DNA of 32,000 bases from an uncultured Rivularia sp. (GCA_963665115.1 OY762007.1:4132341-4164340); one strand, 5' to 3'; counted from the stretch's first letter, positions 4,458 through 32,000 are shown. A program made the numbers and translations. The notes: a model not told the origin generated them from the sequence alone.

Positions 4458-4850
<393 letters not shown>

Positions 4851-6540: not shown

Positions 6541-6632
6541 ATTTACCTTACTTTTACATTACTTTTTTGGCTGTTTAGCACAAGCTTTTACATAGCTGTA
6601 ATTAGTTCAGGCTAAACAAAAGTATTGTATAA

Positions 6633-6740
<108 letters not shown>

Positions 6741-6822
6741 TAAATCTACTTTTTATAATTTAAAACTTTCAAAAAAAAATATCTAATTTTAACTATAGGA
6801 TTAATATTTAGGTATTAAAAGA

Positions 6823-6852
6823 CCTGCTTTTATTCACAAAAGCGGGTTTTTT
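6823..6852. terminator. Hairpin plus T-run in the left arm of element 2
   Basis: CCTGCTTTT (6823..6831) pairs with AAAAGCGGG (6838..6846) with one G-U pair. It is followed by T6 (6847..6852) on the plus strand and by TCTTTTAAT on the minus strand. It sits downstream of the integrase stop and in the path of nifH read-through. Confidence 0.5.
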
Positions 6853-6925
6853 AGTTATTGTTAATCAATCAAAAATATTTATTTATGATTATTCCGAATT
6901 TACAATGTCCAATTCCCAAATTCCT

Positions 6926-8371: not shown

Positions 8372-8418
8372 AACAATTTTAAGTATTGCAAAAGTTGAAT
8401 TTAAACTAATTGCAATAA

Positions 8419-10255
<1,837 letters not shown>

Positions 10256-11359: not shown

Positions 11360-11539
11360 ATGAATAAAAATAAAAATTATATTTTTGTTAAAAATAAACA
11401 ACCGAAACAACGAATTACAAATGATGCTCAAAATATTCGTCAACCAAAACATAGTGATTCTATTGAAAGTACTCTAGAAATTCTCAGACTATTAGAACGG
11501 AATGATAATCTCTCTAAATGTAAAACGGTGTCTTCTTGA
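11360..11539 (+). CDS. Hypothetical 59-aa basic ORF followed by a strong hairpin terminator
   Basis: My own translation is MNKNKNYIFVKNKQPKQRITNDAQNIRQPKHSDSIESTLEILRLLERNDNLSKCKTVSS. It lies in an AT-rich region and falls below the track cutoff. The only support is the terminator 27 nt downstream. Confidence 0.2.
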   Translation: MNKNKNYIFVKNKQPKQRITNDAQNIRQPKHSDSIESTLEILRLLERNDNLSKCKTVSS

Positions 11540-11565
11540 ATAGTTCGTTTTCCCTGAAACAATGT

Positions 11566-11597
11566 AGAGACGTAGCAATGCTACGTCTCTTTTATTT
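11566..11597 (+). terminator. Rho-independent terminator-like hairpin
   Basis: AGAGACGTAGC (11566..11576) pairs perfectly with GCTACGTCTCT (11580..11590) across a 3-nt loop, followed by TTTATTT. Confidence 0.55.
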
Positions 11598-11731
11598 GCT
11601 GCTATAAGTAAACCGCTATTGTCAACTTTAAAGAAACCCAGTTTCTTTTTATAAAAACACGATTATCTCGTTTGGTCATTTGCAAGAAACCGGGTTTATT
11701 AGTGCTTGTTGATAATGGTGCAAGATTTGTG

Positions 11732-17500: not shown

Positions 17501-17573
17501 GATTATTAATTCCTTCGTGTAATTTTGTTAGCTTTTACGTCTCAACAATCCGAAAATAATCAACGCCGATTAT

Positions 17574-17681
17574 TTAACCCCTAAAGTCAAAGTTGAAAAT
17601 CAAGTCGCTACAATCAAGGTCATTACCCTCCGGTAAATGCTCAAAACCAATTGTTGTAAATCAAGATATCTACACCATGAT
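17574..17681 (-). pseudogene. Second DUF4114 C-terminal remnant, just upstream of the giant gene
   Basis: The minus strand encodes GFEHLPEGNDLDCSDLIFNFDFRG* (17574..17648). It is preceded out of frame by HGVDILIYNNW. Compare the giant protein's DGVDHIKLLADNTFGFEDLPKGGDFDYNDLIVKVDFIG*. Confidence 0.6.
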
Positions 17682-17970
17682 TTTTGTTTCCTTATTTGTG
17701 TTCTAAGTAATATATTCATAGATACAAATAATGTAGCTCTAGGTAGATGCAATACTTAACGAGTCTCAGCCTCTAGCTTAAATAAGCAAAAACTGATTAT
17801 TTCAGTTATGAAGTGCAACCCCGTGAAAAGTCGAGTCCAATTTTGATTGTGAAATATTAAGAAATTATTTCAATAAATCAAACCAAAATTAGCTATCTAC
17901 GATTAAGATTACACAGGAAATTCCTTTAAGTGGTATTGCATATTACCTTCAAAGCAGGGTAGAAAAAGTT

Positions 17971-18018
17971 GTCAATTTTTATCAACTTTTATCAACTTTT
18001 ATCAACTTTCAGTTGAAT
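17971..18018. promoter_or_regulatory. Array A: four 10-bp-phased tandem repeats (minus-strand consensus AAAGTTGATA) in the divergent giant-gene/TpsA intergenic region
   Basis: The plus strand reads GTCAATTTTT ATCAACTTTT ATCAACTTTT ATCAACTTTC, then AGTTGAAT, forming the palindrome TCAACT-TTC-AGTTGA. The array lies 248..295 bp upstream of the ATG at 18266. Confidence 0.6.
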
Positions 18019-18265
18019 AGTAATGGTTTTTCCTATCGGTTTTCTGTAGGAGAATAAAGCTAAAAAAGAGCATACAGGATAAATTAATTTGCATTTTTTA
18101 TATAGTTGGTAATTAATATCCAATTAACTCAAATAATCATCACTTTTCGCTTAATTAATTGATAACTTATAGCAATATAGCGGTTTTCGATTATGTGAGG
18201 TACACTTTATAACTGTATTTATCAAAATTTAGCTATATTTACCATAAGCTATTGCTATACCTGTT

Positions 18266-21200
18266 ATGCCCAATTATTTACTAATCAAGCACAAGCAAAT
18301 ATTCCTATGGTATAGGAATCAATTACAGGTACTTTTATCTCTGGAAAAATTAAAATCAACATTTCTTTACCTATCATTACTCTGGAACATTACTACCGCA
18401 ATCTCCACGCTGACAATTTCCACAGTTTTGGCTCAAATCACTCCCGATACAACTTTAGATAATTCTCCCTCTAAAGTAAATTCTCAAGGTTTGAATAATT
18501 TATTGATTGAAGGTGGAGTTAGAAACCAAAGCAATCTTTTTCACAGTTTCCAAGAATTTAACATAAACAACGGACAGCAGGTTTTTTTTGCAAATCCCCA
18601 AGGAATAAACAATATAATCACTCGCGTTACAGGTAATAACCCTTCAAATATCAACGGTGTTTTAGGAGTTAACGGTTTAGCAAATTTATTTTTTATTAAT
18701 CCCAACGGAATTATCTTTGGTAAAGGTTCTCGTCTTGATGTAAATGGTTCTTTTATCGGTGCGACTGCTGAGAGCGTAATCTTCTCAGATGATAGTATTT
18801 TTAGTGCTGTTGAACCGAATAATCCAGCGTTATTAAAAGTAAACGTTCCTTTGGGTTTGCAATACGGTAAAAATACCGCAGCAATTCAACTAAAAGAAGC
18901 TAATTTACAAGTAAAACCTGGTGAAAGTTTAAGTTTAATTGGTGGAAATGTTGATCTAGAAAATTCTACTCTCAAAGCACCGGGGGGAACGATTCAATTA
19001 GGTGGTTTGTTAGCTTCGGGAACTGTGAATTTAAATGATTTAAAATCCTTCAGCTTTCCAGAAAACGTAAAACTTGCTGATGTTTCTTTAACTAATAAAT
19101 CCAATATTGAAGTTATAGCTAGTGGTGGTGGAGATATTTTTGTCAATGCGAATAATTTTTCTTTAAATAACAGTAGTTTTCGAGCCGGAATTAAAGATAG
19201 ATTGGGAGATAGAGAAGCAGTTGCGGGTGATATTTCTATTAACGCTACAGGAGATATTAATATTGACCAAGACAGTAATATTAGGAATATTTTAGAACTT
19301 AATTCTTTGGGTAGTGGAGGAAAAATTGATATCAAAACAAATAACTTTTTCCTTAAAGATTCAAATATATTAACCAATACTGGTAGTATTGGTGATGCGG
19401 GAAATATCACGATTGAAGCAGCGAATAATTTAGAAGTTATTTCTAGTCCCCAAAACATAGCTTTAGGAATAAGAGGAAGAAAAGGTATATTTTCCAGAGT
19501 TGAAAGAAATGGCACTGGGAATGGTGGTAATATTACTGTCAAAGCTCCGGATATTACTCTTTCAGGTATTGGCGGTATTGAAAGCGGAAGCAGTGGTTTG
19601 GGAAATGCTGGGAAAATATTGATAGAAAGCGATCGCCTTAAAATCATTGAGAATGCAGTTGTATCAGCAAATACAGCGAATTTAGGGAATGCTGGAGAAA
19701 TTTTAATTAAGTCATCTGAGTTTATTGAAGTCAGTAATAAAATTAGCGATTCTCGATTTGCAAATTTAACCGGACCACCGGGAGGAATTGTTGTAGATGT
19801 ACGTCCACGAGGTACTGGAAATGGTGGCAAAATTAGTTTAGAAACCACAAGATTAACTATAAAAGATGGAGCATTGGTTGTAGCGGGTAGTAGAGGAGGA
19901 GGAAATGCTGGTGATATAAATATTCGTGCTACAGAATTAATTGAAGTTACTGGTAGAAGTCAAAACGATAGAAATATGTATACCAGTCAAATAGGTACAG
20001 CATTACAGGAAAATTCCACGGGTAAACAAGGGGGTAATCTTTTTTTAGAAACCAAGAATTTGATTGTTAGTAATGGAGCAGAAATTGATGTTAGTACAAA
20101 TAATTCTGGACAAGCTGGAGATTTAACTGTTATAGCATCTGAATCGGTTTTTTTAGGGGGATTATATGAAGGTATTCCCAGCCGTTTGCAATCTCAAGTC
20201 GATAAAAATGGTAGCGGAACGGGAGGAGATATTTTAGTTCAAACTGGAATAATAAATTTAAAAAATGGCGCTCAAATTTCTGCTGCTAATTTAGGAAAGG
20301 GAAATAGTGGTAACGTTAATATCTTTGCTGATGAAATAAATATAGCCGGTTCTACATTAGCTCTTGAAAAATTGCCTTTTAGAACTTCCGAATTTGTCAC
20401 AGATGACACGGGGAATTTATTTCCGAGCGGAATTTTTAGCAGTTCATTACAAGTAGGAGATGCAGGTAATTTAGAAATAGAAACGGGTAAATTAACTCTT
20501 GAAGATAAGGCTCAAATTTCAGTCAGCAGTCAACAACTTGGTGCAGCAGGAAATTTGGAAATTCAAGCAAATCAAATTTATCTCGATAATGCAATAATCA
20601 GCGCTGACACTGTAGCGGGAGATAAAGGAAGTATTTATTTGAATGGTGCAGATATTCGATTGCGTCAAGGTAGTCGGTTAACAACAAATGCGACTCAAAC
20701 TGCTACCGGAGGTAACATTGATATTGATAGCTTAACTTTAGTTGGTTTAGAAAATAGCGATATTACAGCTAATGCAGAAGATAATTTTGGTGGTAGAGTA
20801 ATTATCAATGCTGAAGCACTTTTTGGGATTGCGTTTAGAGATTTTATCACTCCACAAAGCGATATTACTGCAACTTCTGCGTTGGGAGCAGAATTTAATG
20901 GTGTCGTCGAAATTAACACCCCAGATATTGACCCCTACTTCTGCGTTGGAAGAGTTACCAGAAACATTTACCAACCCATCGCAAATTACAGCGGGATGTC
21001 CCGCTGATGGAGGAAATAAGTTTGCTGAAACAGGAAGAGGTGGTTTACCAAAAAGTCCTCAAGAAGTTTTACGTTCTCAGGTAGTTGTTGAAGATTGGAG
21101 AGTTTCGCTTGGGGAAGTTGTTGATAAAGCAGAAATTCAACAAGAAGAAAATAAATTTACCCCAATTGTTGAAGCTCAAGGTTGGATTGTAAACGAAGAC

Positions 21201-21275
21201 GGAGTTATCGAATTTGTGGCTAATTTACCTAAAGATAATGTCCCTGTTGGAAACAATTCAGTAAATTGTGGTTAA
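18266..21275 (+). CDS. Filamentous-haemagglutinin-like (TpsA-type) exoprotein, with an apparent 1-nt insertion at a C4 run (20932..20935)
   Basis: The N-terminal TPS/haemagglutination-activity domain is present (NLFHSFQEFNI, ITRVTGNNPSNINGVLG, LFFINPNGIIFG). Long beta-helical GNAG-type repeats follow. Frame 1 ends ..NTPDIDP, and the next frame continues TSALEELPETFTNPSQITAGCPADGGNKFAETGRGGLPKSPQE... to 21275. The total of 3010 nt minus 1 equals 1003 codons. The start codon is uncertain. Confidence 0.8.
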
Positions 21276-21439
21276 AGCTGTGAAAAATTAACGGTTAACA
21301 ATTAACGAGAAAATTGTAGGTTGGGTTGAGCCACGTTAGCGAAGCGTGTCCGATAGGACATAAACTAACACAAAATCTATTGTTACAAAATTCAAAAAAT
21401 TGGGAAACATAAGAAAGTCAATTTCAGTAATATCCTGTA

Positions 21440-23578
21440 ATGAAAGCCGTTTTACAACACAGCGAAGAAGATTGTGGTGCTGCTTGTTTGGCTACTGTTG
21501 CGAAACACTACGGTAGAACTTTCACTCTGAGCAGAATGCGAGAATTTGTTGGTACGGGTAGTCAAGGTACTACTCTTTTAGGGTTGAAGCGGGGAGCAGA
21601 AAATTTAGGATTTAATGCTCGTACACTCAGAGCTACTCCTAAGCTGATCGAATCGTTAGATCAAATAACTTTGCCTGCAATTATTCACTGGAAGGGCTAT
21701 CACTGGGTAGTATTATTCCAGCAAAAGGGAAACAAATATGTAATTGCAGATCCTGCTGTGGGTATACGCAACCTTAGCAAGCGGGAATTAACGCAAGGTT
21801 GGGTAAATGGCGTAATGTTGCTCTTAAACCCCGATGATAACCGTTTTTACCAACAAGAATCAGATAAGATAGACGGTTTTGGTCGTTTTTTGAAACGGGT
21901 TTTACCTTATCGGTATATTTTAGCAGAAGCGATCGCCATTAATATTGTGGTGGGTTTGCTGGCTTTGGCAACTCCTTTTATGATGCAAATACTGACGGAT
22001 GATGTATTGGTTAGGGGTGATATCCAGCTTTTAACTACTGTCAGTATTGCGGTGATGGGGATGAATGTTTTTCGCTCTGCAATTGGTATTGTGCAATCCC
22101 ATCTTGTAGGACAATATGCTCAACGGTTAGAATTAGGTTTGATTTTAGATTATGGCTATAAGCTGCTACGTTTACCTTTATCTTATTTTGAAGCTCGTCG
22201 TAGTGGAGAAGTTGTTAGCCGTATTAGTGATGTTAGGAAAATCAATCAACTGGTTTCTCAAGTTGTTTTAAGTTTACCCAGTCAATTTTTTATCGCTGTC
22301 ATCTCTTTAGGGATAATGTTATTTTACAGTTGGCAGCTTGCTTTGGCTTCTATACTCGCTTTTATTATAGTTATAGCTGTTAACTTTTTATTTTTACCCG
22401 CATTGCGCCAAAAAACCCGCGCTACGATTATTTTAGGTACGGAAAATCAAGGTTTTTTGGTAGAAACATTTCGCGGTATTCAAATTCTCAAAACAACTCA
22501 GGGAACTCCCCAAGCTTGGGAGGAATATCAAGCTAATTACAGTCGTCTTGCTAATCTCAACTGGAGTACTATGAAGTTGGGATTATATAGCAACACATTT
22601 ACAACTTTGCTCAATAGTCTGACAAATGTTGGTTTACTTTGGCTGGGCAGTTATTTTGTAATTAATCGCACCCTCAGCATCGGACAATTACTTGCTTTTA
22701 ACGGTATGAGCGGTAATTTCTTAGGCTTTTTAGGTGTCGCGATGGGATTAATTGATGAATTTATTACTGCTCAAGTAGTAATTAAACGGTTGACTGAAGT
22801 TTTAGATGCGAAAGAGGAAGATGAAAACGGGAATGAAAAACCTTGGGTAGAAATTTCAGAAAAAGCCAATATCGTCTGCGACAAACTTAATTTTCACCAT
22901 CAAGGTAGAGTTAACCTGCTCAAGGATTTTTCTTTAACTATTCCCGGTGGAAAGGTGACAGCTTTGATTGGACAATCTGGCTGTGGTAAAAGTACTTTAG
23001 TTAAAATTATTGGCGGATTGTACGAATTGCAATCGGGAAATATCCGCTACGATATTTACAATCAAGACGATATTTCCTTAGAATGTCGCCGACAGCAGAT
23101 AGTATTAGTTCCCCAAGAGCCTCATTTTTGGAGTCGCTCAATTGTTGATAATTTCCGCTTTGCCTATCCTAGCGTTGATTTTGAACAAATTGTTAAAGCT
23201 TGTCAGATAGCTTATGCAGATGAATTTATCAGCGAATTACCAGATAAATACCATACTATTTTAGGGGAATTTGGTACAAACCTTTCTGGGGGACAAAGAC
23301 AAAGATTAGCGATCGCCAGAGCAATTGTCACAAACCCACCGATTTTAATTTTAGATGAATCTACTGGTGCTTTAGATCCAGTTTTGGAAAGTAAAGTATT
23401 AGAAAGCTTATTAGAATATCGTCAAGGAAAAACAACGATTATGATTAGTCATCGCCCTAGAGTCATTGGACGTGCGAACTTTATTGTACTGTTGGAAAAA
23501 GGAGAATTGCAGCTTACAGGTAATCCTCAAGAATTACTACAAAAACCAGGGAAACATTTAGATTTTCTAACACCTTGA
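21440..23578 (+). CDS. Peptide-processing ABC exporter with an N-terminal C39 peptidase domain (712 aa)
   Basis: The C39 triad candidates are HSEEDCGAACLATVAKHYG (Cys), GYHWVVLF (His) and IADPAVG (Asp). The protein has six predicted TM segments, Walker A GQSGCGKST, signature LSGGQRQRLAIARA and Walker B ILILDE. Confidence 0.9.
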   Translation: MKAVLQHSEEDCGAACLATVAKHYGRTFTLSRMREFVGTGSQGTTLLGLKRGAENLGFNARTLRATPKLIESLDQITLPAIIHWKGYHWVVLFQQKGNKYVIADPAVGIRNLSKRELTQGWVNGVMLLLNPDDNRFYQQESDKIDGFGRFLKRVLPYRYILAEAIAINIVVGLLALATPFMMQILTDDVLVRGDIQLLTTVSIAVMGMNVFRSAIGIVQSHLVGQYAQRLELGLILDYGYKLLRLPLSYFEARRSGEVVSRISDVRKINQLVSQVVLSLPSQFFIAVISLGIMLFYSWQLALASILAFIIVIAVNFLFLPALRQKTRATIILGTENQGFLVETFRGIQILKTTQGTPQAWEEYQANYSRLANLNWSTMKLGLYSNTFTTLLNSLTNVGLLWLGSYFVINRTLSIGQLLAFNGMSGNFLGFLGVAMGLIDEFITAQVVIKRLTEVLDAKEEDENGNEKPWVEISEKANIVCDKLNFHHQGRVNLLKDFSLTIPGGKVTALIGQSGCGKSTLVKIIGGLYELQSGNIRYDIYNQDDISLECRRQQIVLVPQEPHFWSRSIVDNFRFAYPSVDFEQIVKACQIAYADEFISELPDKYHTILGEFGTNLSGGQRQRLAIARAIVTNPPILILDESTGALDPVLESKVLESLLEYRQGKTTIMISHRPRVIGRANFIVLLEKGELQLTGNPQELLQKPGKHLDFLTP

Positions 23579-23629
23579 GAATATAGCGCTTTTCACCGTT
23601 GATGGAATACACATTAACCTCACCCCCAT

Positions 23630-23654
23630 CCCCTCTCCTTGTCAAGGAGAGGGG
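23630..23654. terminator. GC-rich hairpin downstream of the ABC exporter gene
   Basis: CCCCTCTCCTT (23630..23640) pairs perfectly with AAGGAGAGGGG (23644..23654) across a 3-nt loop. Confidence 0.5.
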
Positions 23655-23775
23655 TGGAAGGAAAGGGGTAAGGTTGCGACTTATGGACTCAATTGAAAAC
23701 TGCTATATATGAGTATTCCTAAACAAAGGTGAGATGACTATTAATAGCATTCCTAAATCATTTGTGAGATTTTAG

Positions 23776-23804
23776 AAACCCGGTTTTTTGGAAAAACCGG
23801 GTTT
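23776..23804. terminator. Bidirectional terminator-like hairpin between the convergent ABC and protease genes
   Basis: AAACCCGGTTTTT (23776..23788) pairs perfectly with AAAAACCGGGTTT (23792..23804). The 13-bp stem has T and A runs built into both arms. Confidence 0.6.
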
Positions 23805-23854
23805 GTGGCACCTACCTTTTTTACGACTCATCTAGGATTGCTATATGAGTATTC

Positions 23855-26067
23855 CTAAACAAAGGTAATATCGCTATCCAGATTAAAACCAGATCCATTT
23901 AGGGAAGCAACGGTATTTCCTTCATAGGATAAAGTACCGCCAACTGTGATTGTCTGTTTGAATGGGGCCCCCATCCGATATTTATAGTCTGAGAACTATA
24001 ACTAAAGTCATCCAAACTAGCATCAGAAATTCCAAGAGCTTGAACATCTATACCGATTTTGTCTCCCTGGCTAGAATTAAAGTCAGTAATTATGTCATAA
24101 CTACCAAAATCATCTAAGACGAACAAGTCACTACCATTATTACCACTGAGAGTATCTCTTCCGGCACCACCATACAAAGTATCGTTACCAGCTTTACCAA
24201 GTAGATTATCCTGTCCGGAACCACCATAGACAATATCGTGGTTAGCACCAGCATAGATAGTATCATTACCGTCACCACCTACCAAGATGTCGTTGCCATT
24301 ATAGCCTTTGATGAAATCTGCACCATCGCTACCAAAAATATAATCGATACTATTTGAACCATTTAGAGTATCGTTACTGTTCGTACCTGCTTGGAAGTTA
24401 TCATTAAAACCGGCTAAAACCCCCGTGGTACCAGCAGCGGTAATTGCCATGCCTAAGTTATAAGCATCTACTCTCTGGAAATCTAACCCTGTATTGGTAA
24501 CGTTATCATTTTCGTCATCACCGTCATTAATAGTCACACCAGTAACTTGCATTAAATCGCGGAATTCTTCTACAGATAATCTGCGTCCTAATTCTTGTAC
24601 TGCTAAGTCTTGGGCTAAAGTAGCGATACCAGCAATGAAAGGTGAAGCTTGAGAGGTACCTGCCGATGCCATATATCCACCAGTAGCATTAGCACCAGTA
24701 ATTAATGCTCCAGGAGCAAAAATATCGAGTAAAGTTTCGTGTCTTTGGGAAAAACTAGCAATCCTATCTACATCGCTGCTGTAATCAGTTGCACCACTGC
24801 CATAACCAATTGCACCTTCATTCTCTTCATATACTGCACCTACGGTAATAACATCCGAATGTGCGCCAAAGACATTGACTCCCTGTTCGCTGCTATTGCC
24901 ATAAAAATCGTTACCAGCAGCAGCAGCGACTATGACATCATTATTTGCTAAAGTCTGAAATACATTGCTAAAACTACTAACTACTTCAGTATTGTAATTA
25001 CCAGAACCAAGGGATAAGTTAACGCTGGCAATATTATAGGTATCGATGTTACTTGTCACCCATTGTAAGGCTTCATAAACATCAGTCATAGAAGCGCTAA
25101 GGCCACTATCATCAAACACTTTTAAGTGAATGATATCGGCACCAGAGGCAATGTTCCCAGCGATGCTAGAAACGTGAGAACCATGTCCGTTATAGTCTTG
25201 AGCATTATTGTCATTGTTGCCATAAAAATCATAAGAATAAGCAATGCGATCGGCAAAAACGGAATGGTCTAAGTCAATTCCGGTATCAATGATAACCATT
25301 GAAAAACCAGAACCATCAACGTTAGCGCCAAAAGTGTTATTAAAATCATCCAATCCAACAGCATCATAGCCACTGTCAAATTGAGGTGTGAAAACATCTT
25401 CAGAACTTACATCAACTCTGATTACTTCTTGGGTTGTAGCAACAAATTCCTCATTTACAGATTCTGAGTTGGAAGTATTGCTATTCTCACTTACACTATT
25501 GTCAGATTCGGTATTTTCAGCTTCAGTTTGATTTTGAACCTGGCTATTGTTGGTTTGACCGTTCTCAGATTCTTCTAAGTCTTGATTATCTTGGAAAAGA
25601 TTTTCAGAATTATTCGAGTTTGATAAATCAAAATCTTTTTCTTTTTCTGGTTTATTTGGATTGGATTTATTATTAACAGTTGTTTTCTTGACGATTTTAG
25701 GTAAATCTGCAAAAAAGTCTTCTCGTAAATTGTAATTATTTAGAAGAGATAAAACTTCTTTGAAGCTATTATAAATATTGGCGCTATTTACCTCATTTTC
25801 TACATCTACAGTTGTGCTGTTTGTATTTAGTATGTTATTAACTTCTGCTACATACTGGCTATTATCAGATACAACTTGTTGCAGATTATTTATTTGCTCA
25901 TCAGTCAAAGATAAATCACTTACACCATAGTTGGTAAGCATCCACCATTCGACAAACCCCGCTTTCCATTCACCATCTGTTAACTGTTCCCAATACTCAT
26001 CTGAAAATACTTTTTCCAATTTTTCTTTATTCTTAACTGCTGAATTTTTATGGTTATTTACAGACAT
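23855..26067 (-). CDS. Subtilisin-like (S8) serine protease with C-terminal RTX repeats, and an apparent 1-nt deletion at a G/C run (23964..23972)
   Basis: The catalytic triad motifs are MVIIDTGIDLDH (Asp), NGHGSHVSSIAG (His) and GTSQASPFIAG (Ser). RTX repeats are present (GGDGNDTIYAGANHDIVYGGSGQDNLLGKAGNDTLYGGAGRDTL). The track ORF ends oddly at 23899 (..GWGPHSNRQSQLAVLYPMKEIPLLP*). The neighbouring frame continues as APFKQTITVGGTLSYEGNTVASLNGSGFNLDSDITFV* to 23855. The total of 2213 nt plus 1 equals 738 codons. There is no Cys and no signal peptide. Confidence 0.85.
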
Positions 26068-26227
26068 GATAATTCTCTCAAATTTATAAAATTGTTAAAA
26101 TTTTGTTTGTCTTATTTGAATAGAGAGTTGAAGTTTTTCTCTATCTGTTAAACATCATATTTATTATTTTTCTAATCGTAAATAGAAAATTGATGATATT
26201 TTGTTGTAGAAAATAAATGGTTTATGT

Positions 26228-26251
26228 AAAGTTGATAATAGTTGATAAAAG
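26228..26251. promoter_or_regulatory. Array B: two 10-bp-phased AAAGTTGATA-type repeats upstream of the protease gene
   Basis: The sequence is AAAGTTGATA ATAGTTGATA AAAG, 161..184 bp upstream of the ATG at 26067 on the minus strand. Confidence 0.55.
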
Positions 26252-26490
26252 TAAATGCTTTTTCTAATTACTATTGACATTTAGCGAATATATTAAGTAA
26301 TATTTTTTTATCTTAAGTATATTAATCGAGATGAATTCACTTTATTCAAAATGAAAAATATATTGAAATACTGTTTGATTGCTGAAACTAATACTTTACC
26401 CGATACCCGTTTATGGTTGCGGCTGATAGCCTGCGGGCTTTTGCCATCCGAAGGGATGCTTTCTGCTCAATTATCTGGACTTGATGTTGA

Positions 26491-26524
26491 ACAAAAAAAT
26501 AGAGATGTCAAACTAAACATCTCC
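26491..26524 (-). terminator. Rho-independent terminator of the peptide/hlyD operon
   Basis: The minus strand reads GGAGATGT-ttagtttg-ACATCTCT followed by ATTTTTTT. It lies about 80 bp downstream of the hlyD-like stop at 26601. Confidence 0.6.
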
Positions 26525-26600
26525 AAAAGAAAAGAAAATAGAACACAATAAGTTTTACCCACCAAAAAATAATGACTTATATATAATTTTATAAAAATAT

Positions 26601-28187
26601 TTATAAATTAACTAATAACCTCGCTTTTCTCAGCATAAATGTTAAAACTGTTTCTTCCTTAGAAATAATATCTGCACTACCTTCCATACCTAATTGAATA
26701 TTACATTGTTTCCCAGCTACATTTAAGATTAAATTATCGGGTTTAATTTGTACTTGATAACTTGCTCCTTGAGGAACTATTCCCATTGGGGAAGCGGAGT
26801 TAGAAGCAATTGAATTAGATTGAGGATTGATTGCATCGGGGGAAATACTGCTAACCCTTCCTTTAAGAGTTCCATAATCGGGATAGGGACAAGCTGATAC
26901 TCGCATATGTACTATTTGCCCAAGCTCAACTTTACTGATTTCCCCAGAGGGTATGCTGGCTTTAATTTCTAAAGGTGTGTCACTAGGAGCAATTTGAGCA
27001 ATCATTTCTCCAGCACGAATCACCTGGGAGGTATTTCGCAAATTTAATTGGGCAATTATTCCAGAAGCGGAAGCTCGAATGTTAATATCTTCTAGTTCGG
27101 TTTCTATTTGTTGTAAATCTTTTTTATAAGTTTGTAATTGATTCTGTAACTGTGCTTGATTTTGCATCAATTGTTCTTTTTGCTGCTTGAGTCTGGATGA
27201 AGTCGCTTCTCCCCTAGCTCTTTCTTGTGCAATTCTTTCTCGTGCGATCGCAATTTCTGCTGGAGTAGGATTAAGAGTAGTTTTTACCTTCTTTAATCTT
27301 GCATTCGCTACTTCTATCGCTCTTTGTTGCTTAGCAACGGTTTGTTTATGAGCTTCAACTATGGCTTTTTGTGATTCTAGAGCTTGTTGTTGTTGCTCGA
27401 CTGCGAGAATAGCTTCATCATATCTGTCTCGGGAAAGCGCACCCGATTCAACAATTGATTTATAGCGATCGCGCTTTTTCTTTGCTGTTTTTAAGGAAGC
27501 TGCGGTAGAGCGTAAATTAGCTTGAGCCGATTTTAATTCTGATTTACTTCTTCGTAAATCTTCTTGCATTAATCTAACATTAGCCGTCGCTTCTTCAACA
27601 TCGGAGATAGCGCTAATTTGACGGTTTTGATGCTCCCTTTGAGTACGTTGCAATTCCGCTAATCCAGAAGCTACTGCGCGGTTGGTTTGTTCTGCTTCTG
27701 CTCTAATTTGATTATCTAATGCTACAATTTGTGCTGTTAATTGAGTTAATTGAATTGTACTTTGTTGAATATTTCCTGCTAGGTGACTTTTCTTAGTTTG
27801 TAAACGAGAATCATCAAGTACGGCAATGATATCTCCTTGTTTAACTTGTTGATTTCCCTTAACTAAAATACTATTTACCGTTCCTTCCGTCGCAGCTTGC
27901 ACCAAACGCAATTCCCCAGCCGGACGAATTGTCGCGGGAACTTTAACTGTAGTCTTATATTTAAGGATACTTGTAAGAGTAACACCCGCACCAAAAGCAG
28001 CTAAAAGTACTAAACCGCCAATCGTAGTCCATTTACCAATAGGAGGTAAAAAATCTTCTGGATTTGCAGTATTTATAGATTCTAAATTAATTCCTTTGGG
28101 TGATGGTATTGCTTTTTCGATTGATTTTTCTACCCCAGAGAAGGAATTTATATTATTTGATATTGAAGGAATATCGGCATTAGTCAT
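26601..28187 (-). CDS. HlyD-family membrane-fusion (periplasmic adaptor) protein, 528 aa
   Basis: It has an N-terminal TM segment (WTTIGGLVLLAAFGAGVTLTSIL) and a lipoyl-like motif (VKQGDIIAVLDD). A long coiled-coil region rich in Q, A, R and E follows, then a C-terminal beta-barrel region. Confidence 0.88.
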   Translation of the reverse strand: MTNADIPSISNNINSFSGVEKSIEKAIPSPKGINLESINTANPEDFLPPIGKWTTIGGLVLLAAFGAGVTLTSILKYKTTVKVPATIRPAGELRLVQAATEGTVNSILVKGNQQVKQGDIIAVLDDSRLQTKKSHLAGNIQQSTIQLTQLTAQIVALDNQIRAEAEQTNRAVASGLAELQRTQREHQNRQISAISDVEEATANVRLMQEDLRRSKSELKSAQANLRSTAASLKTAKKKRDRYKSIVESGALSRDRYDEAILAVEQQQQALESQKAIVEAHKQTVAKQQRAIEVANARLKKVKTTLNPTPAEIAIARERIAQERARGEATSSRLKQQKEQLMQNQAQLQNQLQTYKKDLQQIETELEDINIRASASGIIAQLNLRNTSQVIRAGEMIAQIAPSDTPLEIKASIPSGEISKVELGQIVHMRVSACPYPDYGTLKGRVSSISPDAINPQSNSIASNSASPMGIVPQGASYQVQIKPDNLILNVAGKQCNIQLGMEGSADIISKEETVLTFMLRKARLLVNL

Positions 28188-28223
28188 GGTTAAAGGAAAA
28201 CAGGTAAATTTAAGAAAAGAAAA

Positions 28224-28253
28224 GGTAGAGATATTGTATTTAACATCTCTACC
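28224..28253 (-). terminator. Hairpin (possible attenuator) between the peptide genes and hlyD
   Basis: GGTAGAGAT (28224..28232) pairs perfectly with ATCTCTACC (28245..28253). On the minus strand the stem is followed by TTTTCTTTTCTT. Confidence 0.5.
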
Positions 28254-28317
28254 AAAAAAAGTGTATAAGAGAATATTTTTTAAGGCAATTAGATGAAAAT
28301 TCTCATAATTTTTACTA

Positions 28318-28463
28318 TTAAATACTTATCCTCCAAGTAGACGGTACAAAGCTATAAGCAAGAAAAAATCCACCAGTTAAGTTTTCAGAAGATTCATCTG
28401 ACAACACTTGAAATATTTTTTTTTAACTTCAGTAGCTATATTTTTCTTCTTTTTGATAGACAT
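28318..28463 (-). pseudogene. Third double-glycine-leader peptide gene, out of frame at a 9-nt homopolymer (28416..28424)
   Basis: The ATG frame reads MSIKKKKNIATEVKKKYFKCCQMNLLKT*. The other frame reads IFQVLSDESSENLTGG|FFLAYSFVPSTWRISI*. One extra A (A10) would fuse them into a 48-aa precursor. The 5' leader AAAACTTGGAG is shared with its two paralogues. Confidence 0.6.
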
Positions 28464-28598
28464 GACGATTTTCTCCAAGTTTTGAAAAAGGTTTTATTTA
28501 ATTTTGGTTTATGAGTGAAGCTGAAAGATTTAGTAATCTAGGTAGTGTATAGTTTGCTTTGATTTTCTTACTTCAAAAGCTTATCTAGGTTCTTACCT

Positions 28599-28853
28599 TT
28601 ACGATTTGATTAATATTATGTCTACTTGAGCTTCTTGTTCATCTGATGAAGTTATTGTTGTTTCTCCGATCACTGTTCCTTCTCCGTCATAATTATCGGC
28701 AAACTTAAATAATTTTTTAAGTTCATTTAACCACGAACTACTACTAAACAGTTTATTTAAAATTGAAGCAGTAATAAATCCACCAGTTAACTGTTCGGAA
28801 GCATCATCTGACAATTCTTCAAACAAATGTTGTTGATTTTTGTTACTAAACAT
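28599..28853 (-). CDS. Double-glycine-leader peptide precursor 2 (84 aa)
   Basis: The leader is MFSNKNQQHLFEELSDDASEQLTGG. The 59-aa Cys-free core is FITASILNKLFSSSSWLNELKKLFKFADNYDGEGTVIGETTITSSDEQEAQVDIILIKS. Confidence 0.75.
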   Translation of the reverse strand: MFSNKNQQHLFEELSDDASEQLTGGFITASILNKLFSSSSWLNELKKLFKFADNYDGEGTVIGETTITSSDEQEAQVDIILIKS

Positions 28854-28975
28854 TATTTTAAATCCAAGTTTTTACCAAAGATTTGAGTTAGTTGTACCTT
28901 GAGTGAAGTTGAATTATTTCGTAAATTGGGTACTACTCTACTTTAATTTCATAAAAATAGAGTTTTTTTAGATTT

Positions 28976-29005
28976 GTTAGAGATATTATAAATAACATCT
29001 CCAAC
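28976..29005 (-). terminator. Hairpin after peptide gene 1, related in sequence to the one at 28224..28253
   Basis: GTTAGAGAT (28976..28984) pairs with ATCTCCAAC (28997..29005) with one wobble. It has the same AGAGAT..ATCTC core and a 12-nt loop. Confidence 0.4.
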
Positions 29006-29048
29006 AAGATTGCACCTCAATCACTCAAAGTATTTAACGGCTTTATAA

Positions 29049-29288
29049 TTAACCAAACATTGAGTTATATTGCGCGAGCAACATTGGTTTTACAATATTT
29101 CTCAAAAATTTTGGAAAAGACTTTAATGTATTGCCAAACATTTCATTAAATGATGGGGGTTCGTCTGTAATATATGTTGGTTGAATATCTTTGGATTCTG
29201 CATACAGTTGTTCTCCACCAGTCAAATTTTCAGAAGCTTCATCTGACAATACTTCAAATAATTGCTCTTGATTTTTGTTAATAGACAT
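29049..29288 (-). CDS. Double-glycine-leader peptide precursor 1 (79 aa)
   Basis: The leader is MSINKNQEQLFEVLSDEASENLTGG. The 54-aa Cys-free core is EQLYAESKDIQPTYITDEPPSFNEMFGNTLKSFPKFLRNIVKPMLLAQYNSMFG. Confidence 0.75.
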   Translation of the reverse strand: MSINKNQEQLFEVLSDEASENLTGGEQLYAESKDIQPTYITDEPPSFNEMFGNTLKSFPKFLRNIVKPMLLAQYNSMFG

Positions 29289-29410
29289 TGTTTGAACTCC
29301 AAGTTTTAAAAAAGGTTTTAAGTTGTTTTAAGCCTTGATTGAGGTTTTGCTTTGCTGTTCCTCCATCTGTAAACAATACTAAACGTTTTTTCTCTCAGTG
29401 TAAATAAACA

Positions 29411-29472
29411 AAAGTTGATATCTTTTTTGAAGAATAAACCAACATTTTCATCAAAGTTGACAAAAGTTGATA
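29411..29472. promoter_or_regulatory. Array C: AAAGTTGATA at 29411..29420 plus the tandem pair AAAGTTGACA AAAGTTGATA at 29453..29472, upstream of the peptide operon
   Basis: The array lies 123..184 bp upstream of the ATG at 29288 on the minus strand. It has the same orientation relative to its gene as arrays A and B. Confidence 0.55.
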
Positions 29473-29915: not shown

Positions 29916-30690
29916 CTACGCAACAATCCATAGATGTTCGTGGGTATCCGGCCATATTTGAATTTGCGGACGAGCTTCTAGCGCCGTACTAATTAATTGA
30001 CTGGCAATATCGGCGTGAATAGAAACTCCACTGACTCTATCGCGATAATGAGTATAAAAATAGTCATCTAAACTTGCCGCTGTAGGGTCCAATTAAAACA
30101 ATGCGATCGCGAATAAATTCAGGTGACATTTTCCCTGTTAATACCTGATTCATTGAGATTGTAGGGAAACCAGAGCGGAGGTTGCGAAAGTTAGCTAATA
30201 CTTGATAACCACCTATATCATTTCGCAGATAGCCGCCATCCGAAGCATCTAATTCAATTAGAAAACCTTTACCGAGTTTGAGCGATAAAACTTCTTCTCC
30301 AACAAATTCTGGATAAATGCCTTTGCTTTCAAGATAGTTTAAAGCTAACTGCGTTCCCAAACCCAAGATAATGTCGCCGTTTTTATCTTCAATAGATAAT
30401 AGATTACGTCTGACTCTACCATCTTGGTCTACAACTATATCAGAAGCACTTACCTGTCCTAATTCTTTTAATTTTAGTGGTGGATTAACGAAATTAGAAG
30501 CACTACCCGTCATCTTCTAAATTCCGAATAAACTTAGTGTGGATGCAAAAACCTGTACTAGCTGCTTAAATGCTGGCTCTACAGGTAAATCGCGATAAAT
30601 ATCAAGTCCAATAACTGATGGTTGGTGTTGTTTTACGATTGATAATAATCTCATCTTCCCAAAAAATATATCCTTGTATGGTCTACACCT
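29916..30690 (-). pseudogene. CHASE2 sensor-domain gene remnant (in-frame stop, frameshift, both ends truncated)
   Basis: The minus strand encodes ..SVIGLDIYRDLPVEPAFKQLVQVFASTLSLFGI*KMTGSASNFVNPPLKLKELGQVSASDIVVDQDGRVRRNLLS...IRDRIVLIGP. After a frame change near 30070 it continues TAASLDDYFYTHYRDRVSGVSIHADIASQLISTALEARPQIQIW...*. There is no TM region or output domain, and it abuts the right junction. Confidence 0.6.
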
Positions 30691-30695
30691 CTAGA

Positions 30696-30801
30696 AATGG
30701 ATGAGTTAGAAGCACTTCTCGTTGAGTTCGGTATCTTGGATGATGATACCAAGAACGCAGACGTAATTGGTAAAAAAGCTGAAGAAGTTCCTGCTACCTA
30801 G
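30696..30801 (+). CDS. nifH: nifH segment 4 of 4 (completes codon 263, through the stop)
   Basis: Encodes (E)[34 protein letters not shown], the canonical NifH C-terminus. Confidence 0.92.
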
Positions 30802-30823
30802 TAGTAAGTGATGTCTTAGCGAC

Positions 30824-30873
30824 AAAGGGTAAAGCTAAAGGTACAACTAAACGTTATACCTTTTACCCTTTAC
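30824..30873 (+). other. Imperfect stem-loop in the nifH-nifD spacer
   Basis: AAAGGGTAAAGCTAAAGGTA pairs with TACCTTTTACCCTTT, leaving a small bulge. Confidence 0.45.
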
Positions 30874-30952
30874 CTTCTACCAAATGCTTCAATCAACTCT
30901 TACTATTCCTCAAATCCCAAGTAGTTACCAGTAGTAAAAAAGGCAGAGAAAT

Positions 30953-31186
30953 ATGTCACCCGTAGATAAGAAGAACACCGTCGAAGAAAGAAAGCAGCTA
31001 GTTAACGAAGTTTTAGACGCTTATCCTGAGAAAGCTAAAAAAAGACGTGCTAAGCACCTCAACGTCCACGAAGAAGGTAAGAGTGATTGTGGCGTAAAGT
31101 CTAATGTCAAGTCTCTTCCTGGTGTAATGACCGCTCGTGGTTGTGCATATGCAGGTTCCAAGGGTGTGGTTTGGGGTCCGATTAAA
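30953..31186 (+). CDS. nifD: nifD 5' segment (codons 1 to 78), interrupted
   Basis: Encodes [78 protein letters not shown]. The canonical continuation DM.HISHGPVGCG is absent. The ORF runs into NMFYL* instead. Confidence 0.9.
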
Positions 31187-32000
31187 AATATGTTTTATCT
31201 TTAAAATAAAATACCCTAAACTGTTTGTAGAGAACAATTTTAAGCAAATTAAATGTTCTTTACAAGCAGTTATTTTTTAGGGCATATTTAGGATGAAAAA
31301 GGTGCATCAAGAAGATTTAGATGATTTATTTGAATATTTTGAAGTTCCGGCAAGCACCGATGGAAGCTACATGGGTACACAAGCTCAGGTGAAAGCAACG
31401 CAAGAATATATGGATAAAATAATTGAGGAGAAGCTTACAAATATAAATGCAAGACTCAAGGCGAGTCAAAGCAAGGTAAGTATTAAAAAAGTTGGAAACA
31501 CTCTACAGTTAAGAGCTACTCTTCCGTTAAAACCTGGCGATACTAATAAATCGGGGAGAACTAGAAAGCAATACTTTATCTCTTTAAGTATTCCAGCGAA
31601 TTTGAACGGATTAAAAACAGCTGAAGAAGAAGCTAATGAATTAGGCACGCTGATTGCAAGAAAATGCTTTGAATGGAATGACAAATATCTAGGTATAAAT
31701 ACAAATAAACAGGAGTATAAAACTTTTAAGCAAGTATTAGAAACTTTAGAAAATGAATATTTTAGTACTAGAAAAAGAACTATTAAGAGCGAGCATAGTT
31801 TTTGGCATTTGTATAAACGATATAAACAATATTTTGAATCAAATTTACCAGTTACCAGTGAAAATATCATTACAATTATTAGAAATATTGGTTCCCCGAC
31901 ATCTCGCGACCAAGCAATCAGAGTCGCTAGGGTATTTTCTCAAATTCATCAAATAGAAGTCAATTTCAAAAATTTAAAATTGCCTGTAGTCCCTAATGAT
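31187..32000. mobile_element. nifD interruption element, left end only (continues beyond the window)
   Basis: The NifD match is lost after codon 78, and a XisA-like recombinase gene starts 106 bp inside. The junction position is good to a few nt because the right end and the direct repeat are not in the window. Confidence 0.8.
31293..32000 (+). CDS. XisA/XisC-family tyrosine recombinase, N-terminal 236 codons (3' end outside the window)
   Basis: My own translation is open to the window end: MKKVHQEDLDDLFEYFEVPASTDGSYMGTQ...LQLRATLPLKPGDTNKSGRTRKQYFISLSIPANLNGLKTAEEEANELGTLIARKCFEWNDKYLG...RKRTIKSEHSF... This is clearly paralogous to ORF 5638..6540. It is missing from the ORF track because it has no stop codon inside the window. 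Confidence 0.85.
   Translation, partial: MKKVHQEDLDDLFEYFEVPASTDGSYMGTQAQVKATQEYMDKIIEEKLTNINARLKASQSKVSIKKVGNTLQLRATLPLKPGDTNKSGRTRKQYFISLSIPANLNGLKTAEEEANELGTLIARKCFEWNDKYLGINTNKQEYKTFKQVLETLENEYFSTRKRTIKSEHSFWHLYKRYKQYFESNLPVTSENIITIIRNIGSPTSRDQAIRVARVFSQIHQIEVNFKNLKLPVVPND

What the first reader, a model, noticed from the sequence alone, without database searches (positions are those of the whole stretch)
17971..29472. The same 10-bp-phased tandem motif AAAGTTGATA appears upstream of three separate cargo transcription units
Seen:
- Array A (17971..18010) reads GAAAGTTGAT AAAAGTTGAT AAAAGTTGAT AAAAATTGAC on the minus strand.
- Array B (26228..26251) reads AAAGTTGATA ATAGTTGATA AAAG.
- Array C reads AAAGTTGATA at 29411 and AAAGTTGACA AAAGTTGATA at 29453..29472.

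The repeat period is exactly 10 bp in all three. On the sense strand of the nearest downstream gene the motif always reads TATCAACTTT. It lies 248..295 bp before the TpsA/ABC unit, 161..184 bp before the S8 protease and 123..184 bp before the GG-peptide/hlyD operon.

Inference: helically phased direct repeats are typical of winged-helix (OmpR/PhoB-type) response-regulator sites. The cyanobacterial HLR1 and Pho boxes have this kind of layout. These three promoters may therefore form one regulon. No transcription factor is encoded in the element, and the only sensor-like gene there is a dead CHASE2 remnant. The regulator would then be chromosomal.
Basis: partly seen in the sequence, partly recalled or inferred. 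Interest (0 to 1): 0.68.

Follow-up and report, generated by a model that had tools for sequence, protein, structure and literature searches.

The report
Shared promoter boxes of a cyanobacterial regulon
Three promoters in a DNA element that interrupts the nitrogenase gene nifH carry the same 10-bp box, TATCAACTTT, which recurs at fixed promoter positions in several genera of filamentous cyanobacteria, so it is most likely the docking site of an unidentified transcription factor that switches on a set of secretion and signalling genes together.

Summary
There are nine TATCAACTTT boxes in three 10-bp-phased arrays, each reading in the sense direction of the gene downstream. This is far above chance: six exact 10-mers against 0.22 expected.

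The boxes are not a generic repeat. The same box lies upstream of non-homologous genes in Calothrix, Rivularia, Spirulina and Phormidium, in one layout: box or boxes, 6 nt, -35, 17 nt, -10. Separated boxes lie 2, 3, 4 or 5 helical turns apart.

Promoters B and C are paralogues of the promoter of a small leader-like protein family found in those genera. Their boxes are 79-100% conserved, against 31-42% for flanks and spacers. Array A has an orthologue in an uncultured Rivularia with two boxes instead of four.

The best reading is a head-to-tail activator site for a transcription factor encoded outside the window. A winged-helix OmpR/PhoB-type response regulator is the most likely type. The layout matches RpaB's HLR1 site, but the sequence does not.

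In the window the boxes tie together the parts of one export pathway: the peptidase-containing ABC exporter (PCAT), HlyD, the double-glycine (GG) leader peptides and a leader-bearing S8 protease. The factor was not identified. No paper holding the tandem string was found.

The parts
17971..18010 (+). Array A. Four contiguous boxes (TGTCAATTTT, then TATCAACTTT three times) with a 10-bp period, 256-295 bp upstream of the TPS-domain gene. No -35/-10 at the standard distance was recognised.
   Evidence: The orthologous region in uncultured Rivularia (L052, 92.7% identical over 3.35 kb) has two boxes.
18266..23578 (+). Unit A: TPS-domain protein (18266-21007), an ORF with no family match (20808-21275), and a peptidase-C39 ABC exporter, or PCAT (21440-23578).
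   Evidence: Pfam: TPS 6e-54; Peptidase_C39, ABC_membrane and ABC_tran. NCBIfam TIGR01901.
26228..26258 (-). Array B, distal part. Two boxes (TATCAACTAT TATCAACTTT, 26247-26228) and a decayed third box upstream (about 26258-26248).
26186..26198 (-). Promoter B, degenerate proximal box TATCATCAATTTT. It looks like a box with a 3-bp insertion. CATCAATTTT matches 8 of 10 positions and starts 42 bp after the last distal box.
26154..26182 (-). Predicted promoter B: -35 TTTACG (26182-26177), 17-nt spacer, -10 TATGAT (26159-26154). The predicted 5' UTR to the S8 start codon is about 80 nt.
   Evidence: Consensus scan and alignment with promoter C and the p55 promoters. No transcript data.
23899..26067 (-). 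Unit B: S8 subtilase with RTX repeats. Its N-terminus is homologous to the double-glycine leaders of the neighbouring peptides.
   Evidence: Pfam. Repeat family D1. Leader alignment.
29453..29472 (-). Array C, distal pair: TATCAACTTT TGTCAACTTT.
29411..29420 (-). Promoter C, proximal box (aaga)TATCAACTTT. It ends 6 nt before the -35 and starts 42 bp after the last distal box.
   Evidence: It is 100% conserved against the p55 promoters.
29376..29404 (-). Predicted promoter C: -35 TTTACA (29404-29399), 17-nt spacer, -10 TAGTAT (29381-29376). A conserved block GTTTACAGATGGAGG follows.
26601..29288 (-). Unit C: double-glycine leader peptides (29049-29288, 28599-28853, and a third copy at about 28190-28478 with a frameshift in an A-run) and a HlyD-family adaptor (26601-28187).
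29916..30654 (-). Fragmented CHASE2 gene directly upstream of promoter C. Intact clusters in Calothrix and Rivularia show the same order: CHASE2, then motif, then a small gene.
   Evidence: Pfam CHASE2. ORFs. L031 layout.

Best explanation
The TATCAACTTT boxes are sequence-specific binding sites for one transcription factor encoded outside this window.

The factor binds head-to-tail to contiguous 10-bp boxes on one face of the helix. In promoters B and C a proximal box abuts the -35 element, covering about -51 to -42 of the predicted start. Two or three distal boxes lie four helical turns upstream. That layout is typical of an activator that recruits RNA polymerase and is stabilised by cooperative contacts with distal sites. 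Array A is a four-box site of the same kind, further from its gene.

Together the boxes co-regulate the parts of one export pathway: the PCAT (unit A), the HlyD adaptor and double-glycine peptides (unit C) and a leader-bearing S8 protease (unit B). In related genomes the same element controls the CHASE2 / DUF928-AAA_35 / TPS-CHAT gene clusters.

The most likely binder is a winged-helix OmpR/PhoB-type response regulator related to RpaB but with a different specificity.

Shown here: the boxes, their conservation, their position relative to predicted promoters, and their phasing. Inferred: protein binding, activation rather than repression, and the family of the factor.
For: - Enrichment. Six exact 10-mers against 0.22 expected. 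Eleven weight-matrix hits against 1.1 in shuffles, using a matrix built only from other genomes.
- Rarity elsewhere. The tandem 20-mer has about 1e-3 expected occurrences per 8.7-Mb genome (my own estimate from base composition). It was found in at least 115 genome loci and 53 metagenome loci.
- Fixed architecture in promoters that share no other similarity and drive different genes. The genes are a 57-aa protein, a 254-aa protein, DUF928-AAA_35, an OprB porin, an FHA protein, an eCIS_core protein and a 1376-aa secreted protein. The genera are Calothrix, Rivularia, Spirulina and Phormidium. The layout is box(es), 6 nt, -35 (TTTACG, TTGGCA or TTTGCA), 17 nt, -10.
- Phylogenetic footprint. Between promoters B and C and their paralogues in other genera, boxes are 79-100% identical while flanks and spacers are 31-42%.
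- Phasing. Non-adjacent boxes lie 20-22, 31, 41-44 or 53-54 bp apart, which is 2 to 5 turns of 10.5 bp. Rayleigh R = 0.68, p about 2e-4, phase near zero.
- Position. The promoter-proximal tandem pair is centred about -51.5 from the predicted start. This matches the activating position reported for RpaB/HLR1, -66 to -45 with a peak at -51 (PMC6525291).
- Half-site similarity. On the reverse strand the unit reads TTGAYAAA-AG, matching 6-7 of 8 positions of the HLR1 half-site in the same 8+2 layout.
- Functional coherence of the three units.
Against: - No regulator was identified. No gene with a DNA-binding domain lies next to the motif in the window or in about 170 fetched loci. The few response-regulator genes found are not consistently adjacent.
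- The promoters and transcription starts are predictions from consensus, not mapped.
- B and C share ancestry, so the window holds fewer independent occurrences than three.
- Array A lacks the proximal layout, and TpsA paralogues in other genomes carry the pair inverted. A single orientation-dependent mechanism does not cover all sites.
- The sequence fails HLR1 and Pho-box consensus tests.
- The closest HlyD/PCAT locus in Nostoc lacks the motif, so it is lineage-specific rather than a general feature of PCAT loci.
Confidence: 0.6

Rival explanations
1. The element is real and does the same job, but the binder is not an OmpR/PhoB-type response regulator. It could be a LytTR-type regulator, as in the Gram-positive regulons for double-glycine peptides and bacteriocins. 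Or it could be a small BldC/Xis-like winged-helix protein that polymerises head-to-tail on variable numbers of direct repeats.
For: - The reverse strand AAAGTTGAT fits the LytTR half-site consensus [TA][AC][CA]GTTN[AG][TG] at six boxes (the consensus is recalled from Nikolskaya and Galperin 2002 and was not re-read here).
- LytTR regulators classically control PCAT and double-glycine peptide loci. AgrA sites lie just upstream of the promoters, centred near -60 (PMC4227749).
- BldC binds 2 to 4 head-to-tail repeats of about 9 bp cooperatively (PMC5859096). That fits the variable box number (1-4) seen here.
Against: - From memory, LytTR sites are 9-bp repeats separated by 12-13 bp, giving a period of 21-22. 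Here the boxes are contiguous at 10 bp, and no paired LytTR pattern overlaps the arrays.
- The LytTR half-site pattern is loose: it has 46 matches in the window.
- No LytTR or excisionase-type gene was found near the motif, though the LytTR search of the other loci used a single AgrA query and was not sensitive.
- The BldC consensus AATTXXXX(C) is not matched.
Confidence: 0.2
2. The boxes are inherited baggage. B and C are duplicated promoter-plus-leader cassettes and A grew by replication slippage. The shared motif then reflects common descent and tandem expansion, not a current regulatory function.
For: - B, C and the p55 promoters align along their whole length, and the downstream coding leaders are homologous.
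- Array A has four boxes and its orthologue two, so the copy number is unstable.
Against: - Within the homologous promoters the boxes are 79-100% conserved while the spacers are 31-42%.
- The same box at the same distance from the -35 occurs in promoters with no other similarity, in several genera.
- The spacing is helically phased.
Confidence: 0.07
3. The effect is protein-independent. The T4 tracts repeated every 10 bp make intrinsically curved DNA that acts as an upstream activating or UP-like element.
For: Each box ends in CTTT(T), so the arrays are phased T-tracts. Phased A/T tracts are known to bend DNA and can stimulate promoters; this rests on general knowledge and was not tested here.
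Against: - The invariant part is the non-tract core ATCAAC, at 0.89-0.97 per position. Curvature would not require it.
- Single proximal boxes have no phasing, yet they are the best conserved.
Confidence: 0.06
4. The boxes are a generic dispersed short tandem repeat of this genome, like the STRR heptamers of heterocystous cyanobacteria. Alternatively they are accessory sites for the recombinases of the excision element.
For: The window does contain several heptamer tandem repeats, and all three arrays lie in a recombinase-bearing element.
Against: - There are no exact copies outside the three arrays in 32 kb.
- In 232 kb of related loci almost every copy is promoter-type.
- None of the motif-bearing loci from other cyanobacterial genomes carries a recombinase or a nif gene; the only weak serine-recombinase match (E = 2.8e-4) is in a GC-poor metagenome contig, L124.
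Confidence: 0.03

Closest known systems
HLR1 element bound by RpaB (OmpR-family response regulator, cyanobacteria)
   Same: - Direct repeats with a 10-bp period, as an 8-nt half-site plus 2 nt.
- An activating position centred about -51 from the start.
- Multiple or twin boxes in some promoters (PMC6525291).
- The reverse strand here, TTGAYAAA-AG, matches 6-7 of 8 half-site positions.
   Different: - The HLR1 core is TTACA. Here position 3 is an invariant G, and position 5 is mostly T.
- At 12-13 of 16 matches, 260 other window sites score as well.
- The HLR1-like reading lies on the antisense strand relative to the gene.
- Arrays here reach 3-4 contiguous boxes.
- The target genes are secretion and signalling genes, not photosynthesis or light-stress genes.
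Pho boxes bound by PhoB/SphR
   Same: Tandem direct repeats next to, or replacing, the -35 element, bound head-to-tail by a winged-helix response regulator (established knowledge).
   Different: - The period is 11 bp, against 10 bp here.
- The cyanobacterial unit YTTAAYYW and the E. coli unit CTGTCAT are not matched.
- No phosphate-related genes lie downstream.
Promoter repeats of the Gram-positive regulons for double-glycine peptides and bacteriocins (PlnC/D, ComE, BlpR, AgrA; LytTR regulators)
   Same: - Every operon of a PCAT / accessory protein / double-glycine peptide system carries the same direct repeats just upstream of its -35.
- The half-site consensus fits AAAGTTGAT.
   Different: - The repeat spacing is 21-22 bp, against contiguous 10 bp here.
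- The regulator and kinase are normally encoded in the locus. None is encoded here.
BldC-family regulators (Streptomyces)
   Same: Cooperative head-to-tail binding to a variable number (2-4) of short direct repeats (PMC5859096).
   Different: - The repeat is about 9 bp, AATTXXXX(C).
- The organism and the motif differ.
- No BldC-like gene was detected near the motif.

Membership tests
OmpR/PhoB-type response-regulator site (HLR1-like) | Head-to-tail direct repeats with a 10-11 bp period. | tested here: met
   The period is exactly 10 bp in A, B and C, and the same in the other genomes.
OmpR/PhoB-type response-regulator site (HLR1-like) | HLR1 consensus (G/T)TTACA(T/A)(T/A)-N2-(G/T)TTACA(T/A)(T/A). 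| tested here: not met
   The best overlap has 3-4 mismatches of 16, on the reverse strand. 260 window sites reach that level. G at half-site position 3 is invariant where HLR1 has T.
OmpR/PhoB-type response-regulator site (HLR1-like) | Site centred about -66 to -45 from the transcription start for activation. | tested here: inconclusive
   The tandem pair is centred about -51.5 relative to starts predicted from the -35/-10 consensus. No mapped starts are available.
OmpR/PhoB-type response-regulator site (HLR1-like) | Bound by an OmpR-family protein. | not testable with these tools
   No regulator gene is in the window. The whole source genome was not available.
Cyanobacterial Pho box | Two or three YTTAAYYW units with an 11-bp period. 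| tested here: not met
   There are 3-4 mismatches, the period is wrong, and 546 window sites score equally.
LytTR-regulator binding site | 9-bp half-site [TA][AC][CA]GTTN[AG][TG]. | tested here: met
   Six boxes fit on the reverse strand, but the pattern has 46 matches in the window. The consensus is quoted from memory.
LytTR-regulator binding site | Two half-sites separated by a 12-13 bp spacer. | tested here: not met
   No paired match overlaps the arrays. The boxes are contiguous at 10 bp.
BldC-type site | A variable number of head-to-tail repeats, each AATTXXXX(C). | tested here: not met
   The variable number (1-4) is seen, but the unit sequence and the 9-bp length do not fit (PMC5859096).
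Dispersed short tandem repeat (STRR-like) | Many copies scattered through intergenic DNA, regardless of promoters. | tested here: not met
   All six exact window copies lie in the three arrays. In 232 kb of related loci, the 9 copies outside arrays are mostly single promoter-type boxes. The whole genome was not scanned.
RpaA site | Match to the S. elongatus RpaA matrix. | tested here: inconclusive
   Only an eye comparison with the top FIMO matches in Anabaena (for example AATATTTAAGATTTTCTTTAGATTT; PMC10805033 supplement). No resemblance was seen. The matrix itself was not available.

The most novel reading that the evidence does not exclude
The box marks a peptide-signalling (quorum-sensing or kin-recognition-like) regulon in marine filamentous cyanobacteria. 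Small leader-type proteins (the double-glycine peptides here, and the 53-57-aa proteins elsewhere) would be exported by the PCAT/HlyD pair. They would feed back, through an unidentified sensor and regulator, on every promoter carrying the box, including those of the CHASE2 / AAA_35 / DUF928 / TPS-CHAT clusters. This would be a cyanobacterial counterpart of the Gram-positive bacteriocin and competence circuits. In this strain part of it rides on a DNA element that is cut out of nifH in heterocysts.
Probability: 0.12. Interest if true: 0.75.

Novelty: new member of a known kind. Interest (0 to 1): 0.5.

Why it matters
The box gives a concrete, testable handle on a set of cyanobacterial genes whose regulation and function are unknown. 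These are the CHASE2, DUF928, AAA_35 and TPS-CHAT clusters and the PCAT-exported double-glycine peptides.

A 10-bp sequence with a fixed promoter position can be used directly to fish for the regulator, to predict the regulon genome-wide, and to build reporters.

It also shows that the cargo of a heterocyst excision element is wired into a host regulon and does not carry its own control.

Tried and rejected
- Orthologue check of the HlyD locus. The closest relative (Nostoc, 70% identical protein) and two more distant PCAT/HlyD loci lack the motif. The motif is therefore lineage-specific, and these loci could not test conservation.
- Orthologues of the S8 protease. None closer than 40-58% partial identity was found, so promoter B could not be compared with an orthologue.
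- Exact look-ups of window proteins to obtain the source contig failed.
- Literal-string literature search for the tandem motif: no paper holds it; the 10-mer alone turns up only in unrelated papers such as primer lists.
- SigJ J-box idea, prompted by the recurrent -10 CATACT. The defining GGG trio is absent in most promoters, and no related motif is in that paper's supplement.
- RpaA: no resemblance to the listed matches.
- Search for regulators next to the motif, by phmmer with CheY, AgrA, OmpR and NarL against all ORFs of the fetched loci. Only scattered hits came back, none consistently adjacent.
- The AAA_35 protein as regulator. Its N-terminal region is shared with the CHASE2 protein. 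That suggests an adaptor domain rather than a DNA-binding domain. Its structure could not be predicted under the tool's input rule.
- Recombinase accessory-site idea: rejected.
- Rfam: no RNA family in the window.
- The non-cyanobacterial TGTCAACTTT arrays found by the degenerate pattern were treated as separate phenomena and were not used as evidence.
Full report
**Context of the window**

The window is the nif region of a heterocyst-forming cyanobacterium. It holds nifB, fdxN, nifS, nifU and nifH, then nifD from 30953.

nifH is broken into four pieces by three inserted elements:
- E1, about 4824-6656, carries a tyrosine recombinase that appears frameshifted.
- E2, about 6738-8469, carries a tyrosine recombinase at 6926-8371.
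- E3, about 8812-30690, carries a serine recombinase at 8873-10255 and all the "cargo".

The cargo of E3 is:
- an RTX/DUF4114 protein (11732-17500, minus strand);
- a TPS-domain protein (18266-21007);
- a peptidase-C39 ABC exporter, or PCAT (21440-23578);
- an S8/RTX protease (23899-26067, minus strand);
- a HlyD adaptor (26601-28187, minus strand);
- double-glycine leader peptides (28599-28853 and 29049-29288, minus strand, plus a frameshifted third copy);
- a fragmented CHASE2 gene (29916-30654, minus strand).

No ORF of at least 60 aa in E3 other than the recombinase hits a DNA-binding family.

**The observation**

They are far from chance:
- Six exact TATCAACTTT copies against 0.22 expected, all inside the arrays.
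- Fifteen one-mismatch matches against 6.25 +/- 2.4 in shuffles.
- With a weight matrix built only from boxes in other genomes, eleven hits of at least 12 bits against 1.1 +/- 1.0 in shuffles. Nine of the eleven are the arrays.

**Promoter anatomy in the window**

Promoters B and C align with each other.

Each has two distal boxes. A proximal box starts 42 bp after the last distal box. The proximal box is perfect in C. In B it is degenerate and looks as if it has a 3-bp insertion.

After the proximal box come a -35 (TTTACG or TTTACA), a 17-nt spacer, a -10 (TATGAT or TAGTAT), and a conserved block GTTTAACAGATAGAG / GTTTACAGATGGAGG. The predicted 5' UTRs are about 80 nt.

Array A has four contiguous boxes. 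I could not find a -35/-10 at the standard distance, so its promoter remains undefined.

**Evidence from other genomes**

A metagenome scan with the exact 21-mer returned 53 loci. By my own estimate from base composition, a genome like this one should hold about 1e-3 copies of that pattern.

The hits fall into classes. The TGTCAAC-type arrays in Anaerolineae, Deltaproteobacteria and Bacteroidetes have their own conserved flanks. I treat them as separate phenomena.

The TATCAAC-type hits in cyanobacteria come from Calothrix parasitica, Calothrix PCC 7716, several Rivularia, Spirulina, Phormidium CCY1219 and unnamed marine bins. They show one recurring layout: (aga)TATCAACTTTT, about 5 nt, -35 (TTTACG, TTGGCA or TTTGCA), 17 nt, -10 (often CATACT). 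Often two or three more boxes lie further upstream.

The downstream genes are unrelated to each other:
- a conserved 57-aa protein just after a CHASE2 gene;
- a 254-aa protein;
- the DUF928-AAA_35 operon;
- TPS-CHAT pairs;
- an OprB porin;
- an FHA-domain membrane protein;
- an eCIS_core protein;
- a 1376-aa secreted protein;
- a 53-57-aa "p55" family.

None of these cyanobacterial loci holds a recombinase or a nif gene, so the motif is not a property of the excision element.

In 232 kb of these loci the exact 10-mer occurs 97 times, against 1.2 expected. The nine copies outside tandem arrays are mostly further promoter-type boxes.

**Footprint and phasing**

Promoters B and C are paralogues of the p55 promoters. 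The alignment runs from the distal boxes into the coding region. The encoded N-termini share the leader segment...EQLFEVLSDEASENLTGG in the window peptide against ...EELFKMLSSESYEQLVDR in p55.

So B and C are not independent inventions. Within these alignments, however, the boxes are 79-100% identical, while the upstream flank, the spacer between distal and proximal boxes and most of the 5' UTR are 31-42% identical.

Array A and its flank are orthologous to the TPS upstream region of an uncultured Rivularia (L052), at 92.7% identity over 3.35 kb. That region has two boxes instead of four. Relative to it, the RTX gene in the window is a 6.4-kb insertion or deletion whose edge lies about 40 bp from the array.

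Across 17 promoters, non-adjacent boxes are spaced 20-22, 31, 41-44 or 53-54 bp apart. These are 2, 3, 4 and 5 turns of 10.5 bp. Rayleigh R = 0.68, p about 2e-4, with mean phase near zero. Some of these promoters are paralogues, so the p value is optimistic.

**Mechanism**

A sequence-specific core is invariant across genera: ATCAAC, at 0.89-0.97 per position. It has a fixed position next to the -35, contiguous head-to-tail copies, and integral-turn spacing to distal copies. Together these point to a DNA-binding protein that sits on one face of the helix and contacts RNA polymerase.

The promoter-proximal tandem pair is centred about -51.5 from the predicted start. That is the activating position documented for RpaB on HLR1, -66 to -45 with a peak at -51 (PMC6525291).

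HLR1 has the same 8+2 layout. On the reverse strand our unit TTGAYAAA-AG matches 6-7 of 8 positions of its half-site. But the invariant G at position 3 replaces the T of the TTACA core, and the match is not significant as an HLR1 match.

I therefore favour a paralogous OmpR/PhoB-type response regulator with its own specificity, and I stress that this is inference.

The alternatives for the binder are as follows:
- LytTR regulators fit the half-site consensus, but not the 12-13-bp spacer rule (PMC4227749).
- BldC-type proteins fit the variable copy number, but not the unit (PMC5859096).
- RpaA matches listed for Anabaena look different.

Three further readings are weak for the reasons given under the rival explanations: pure curvature from the phased T-tracts, inherited baggage, and a dispersed repeat.

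**What it does in this element**

Unit A supplies the PCAT. Unit C supplies the HlyD adaptor and the double-glycine peptides. Unit B supplies a protease whose N-terminus carries the same leader. A common control element on all three is what a single export pathway would need.

In Calothrix and Rivularia the gene order is CHASE2, then the motif, then a small gene. This order is mirrored at promoter C, where the CHASE2 gene is in fragments. The cargo therefore looks like a rearranged piece of the chromosomal CHASE2/TPS cluster that kept its host-controlled promoters.

**Limits**

- No regulator was found.
- No transcript data exist for these promoters.
- The source genome could not be scanned.
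- TPS paralogues in related genomes carry the pair in the opposite orientation, about 170-190 bp upstream. Array A has no recognisable proximal layout. The distal sites may therefore work in either orientation, or serve something else.
- The closest Nostoc HlyD/PCAT locus and two others lack the motif.

**Novelty**

No paper in the held library contains the tandem string. The sequence matches none of the cyanobacterial direct-repeat elements I tested: HLR1, Pho box, L box and G box.

The kind of element is familiar: response-regulator-type direct repeats at an activator position. This box and its regulon appear undescribed. I rate it a new member of a known kind, of moderate interest, because it makes an uncharacterised gene set directly testable.

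Noticed in passing
window 4458-8982 and 30640-31204: nifH is split into four pieces by three separate insertions: about 4824-6656, about 6738-8469 and about 8812-30690. Two of them are minimal elements of 1.6-1.8 kb that carry little more than a tyrosine recombinase gene. nifD (from 30953) is also interrupted, near codon 80 (about 31190).
   Followed up: partly
window 2024-3237: nifS (Aminotran_5) is read as two overlapping ORFs, 2024-2416 and 2347-3237. This is either a frameshift or a sequencing error.
   Followed up: no
window 25973-26067, 28356-28478, 28766-28853, 29201-29288: The 722-aa S8/RTX protease begins with the same leader-type sequence as the double-glycine peptides, but has DG where the peptides have GG. 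A third peptide gene, at about 28190-28478, has this leader but is frameshifted in an A9 run.
   Followed up: partly
window 11527-17927, compared with L052 884-886: The 1922-aa RTX/DUF4114 gene and its flanks are absent from the otherwise 88-93% identical region of an uncultured Rivularia. A 77-nt copy of the 3' end of the gene (17574-17650, 81% identical to 11732-11808) lies just upstream of its start.
   Followed up: partly
L031, L050, L076, L095, L103, L125, L135, L153, L164: A conserved cluster occurs in Calothrix and Rivularia: CHASE2, a 57-aa protein, AAA_35, DUF928 and a 254-aa protein. The CHASE2 protein shares a region with the AAA_35 protein (phmmer E about 1e-14), perhaps an adaptor domain. 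The 57-, 254- and 53-57-aa proteins hit no Pfam or NCBIfam family.
   Followed up: partly
L022, L026, L028, L074, L078, L082, L091, L094, L097, L106, L115 (Anaerolineae and relatives): Arrays of TGTCAACTTT in two to four copies recur in many contigs. Each is preceded by a conserved hairpin-like sequence (attcgtt...aacgaat), and some lie next to tRNA genes. This looks like a separate repeated element or promoter type.
   Followed up: no
L003, L016, L039, L108, L123, L143, L158, L159 (Saprospiraceae/Bacteroidetes); L121, L127, L139, L140, L163, L165 (metagenomes): Arrays of TATCAACNNT with a 10-bp period lie directly in front of start codons in Saprospiraceae-type contigs, sometimes with inverted arrays upstream. 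Some metagenome contigs also hold very long satellite-like arrays of TTATCAACTTTT.
   Followed up: no
promoters in L012, L031, L048, L093 and others: The predicted -10 of many motif promoters is CATACT, often preceded by GC or GGC. It resembles the aAtacT part of the SigJ J-box (GGGaAtacT) but lacks the conserved GGG.
   Followed up: partly
window 23706-23741 and 23842-23877: A 36-nt direct repeat (89% identical, 136 bp apart) lies in the convergent gap between the PCAT and S8 genes.
   Followed up: no
L171 and L172 (P0077); also P0067 and P0081: Some cyanobacterial HlyD homologues are fused to an N-terminal response-regulator receiver domain. In L173 a TPS protein, HlyD and a receiver-GerE regulator lie in a row next to a PCAT, a Nif11-leader protein and a LanM-like (DUF4135/LANC_like) gene.
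   Followed up: no
window 1451-1496, 3235-3277, 4277-4321, 30857-30881: Heptamer tandem repeats (AATCCAA, TAAGAGT, CAACTAG, TACCTTT) lie in the nif intergenic spacers. They are typical STRR-like repeats and are unrelated to the 10-bp box.
   Followed up: no
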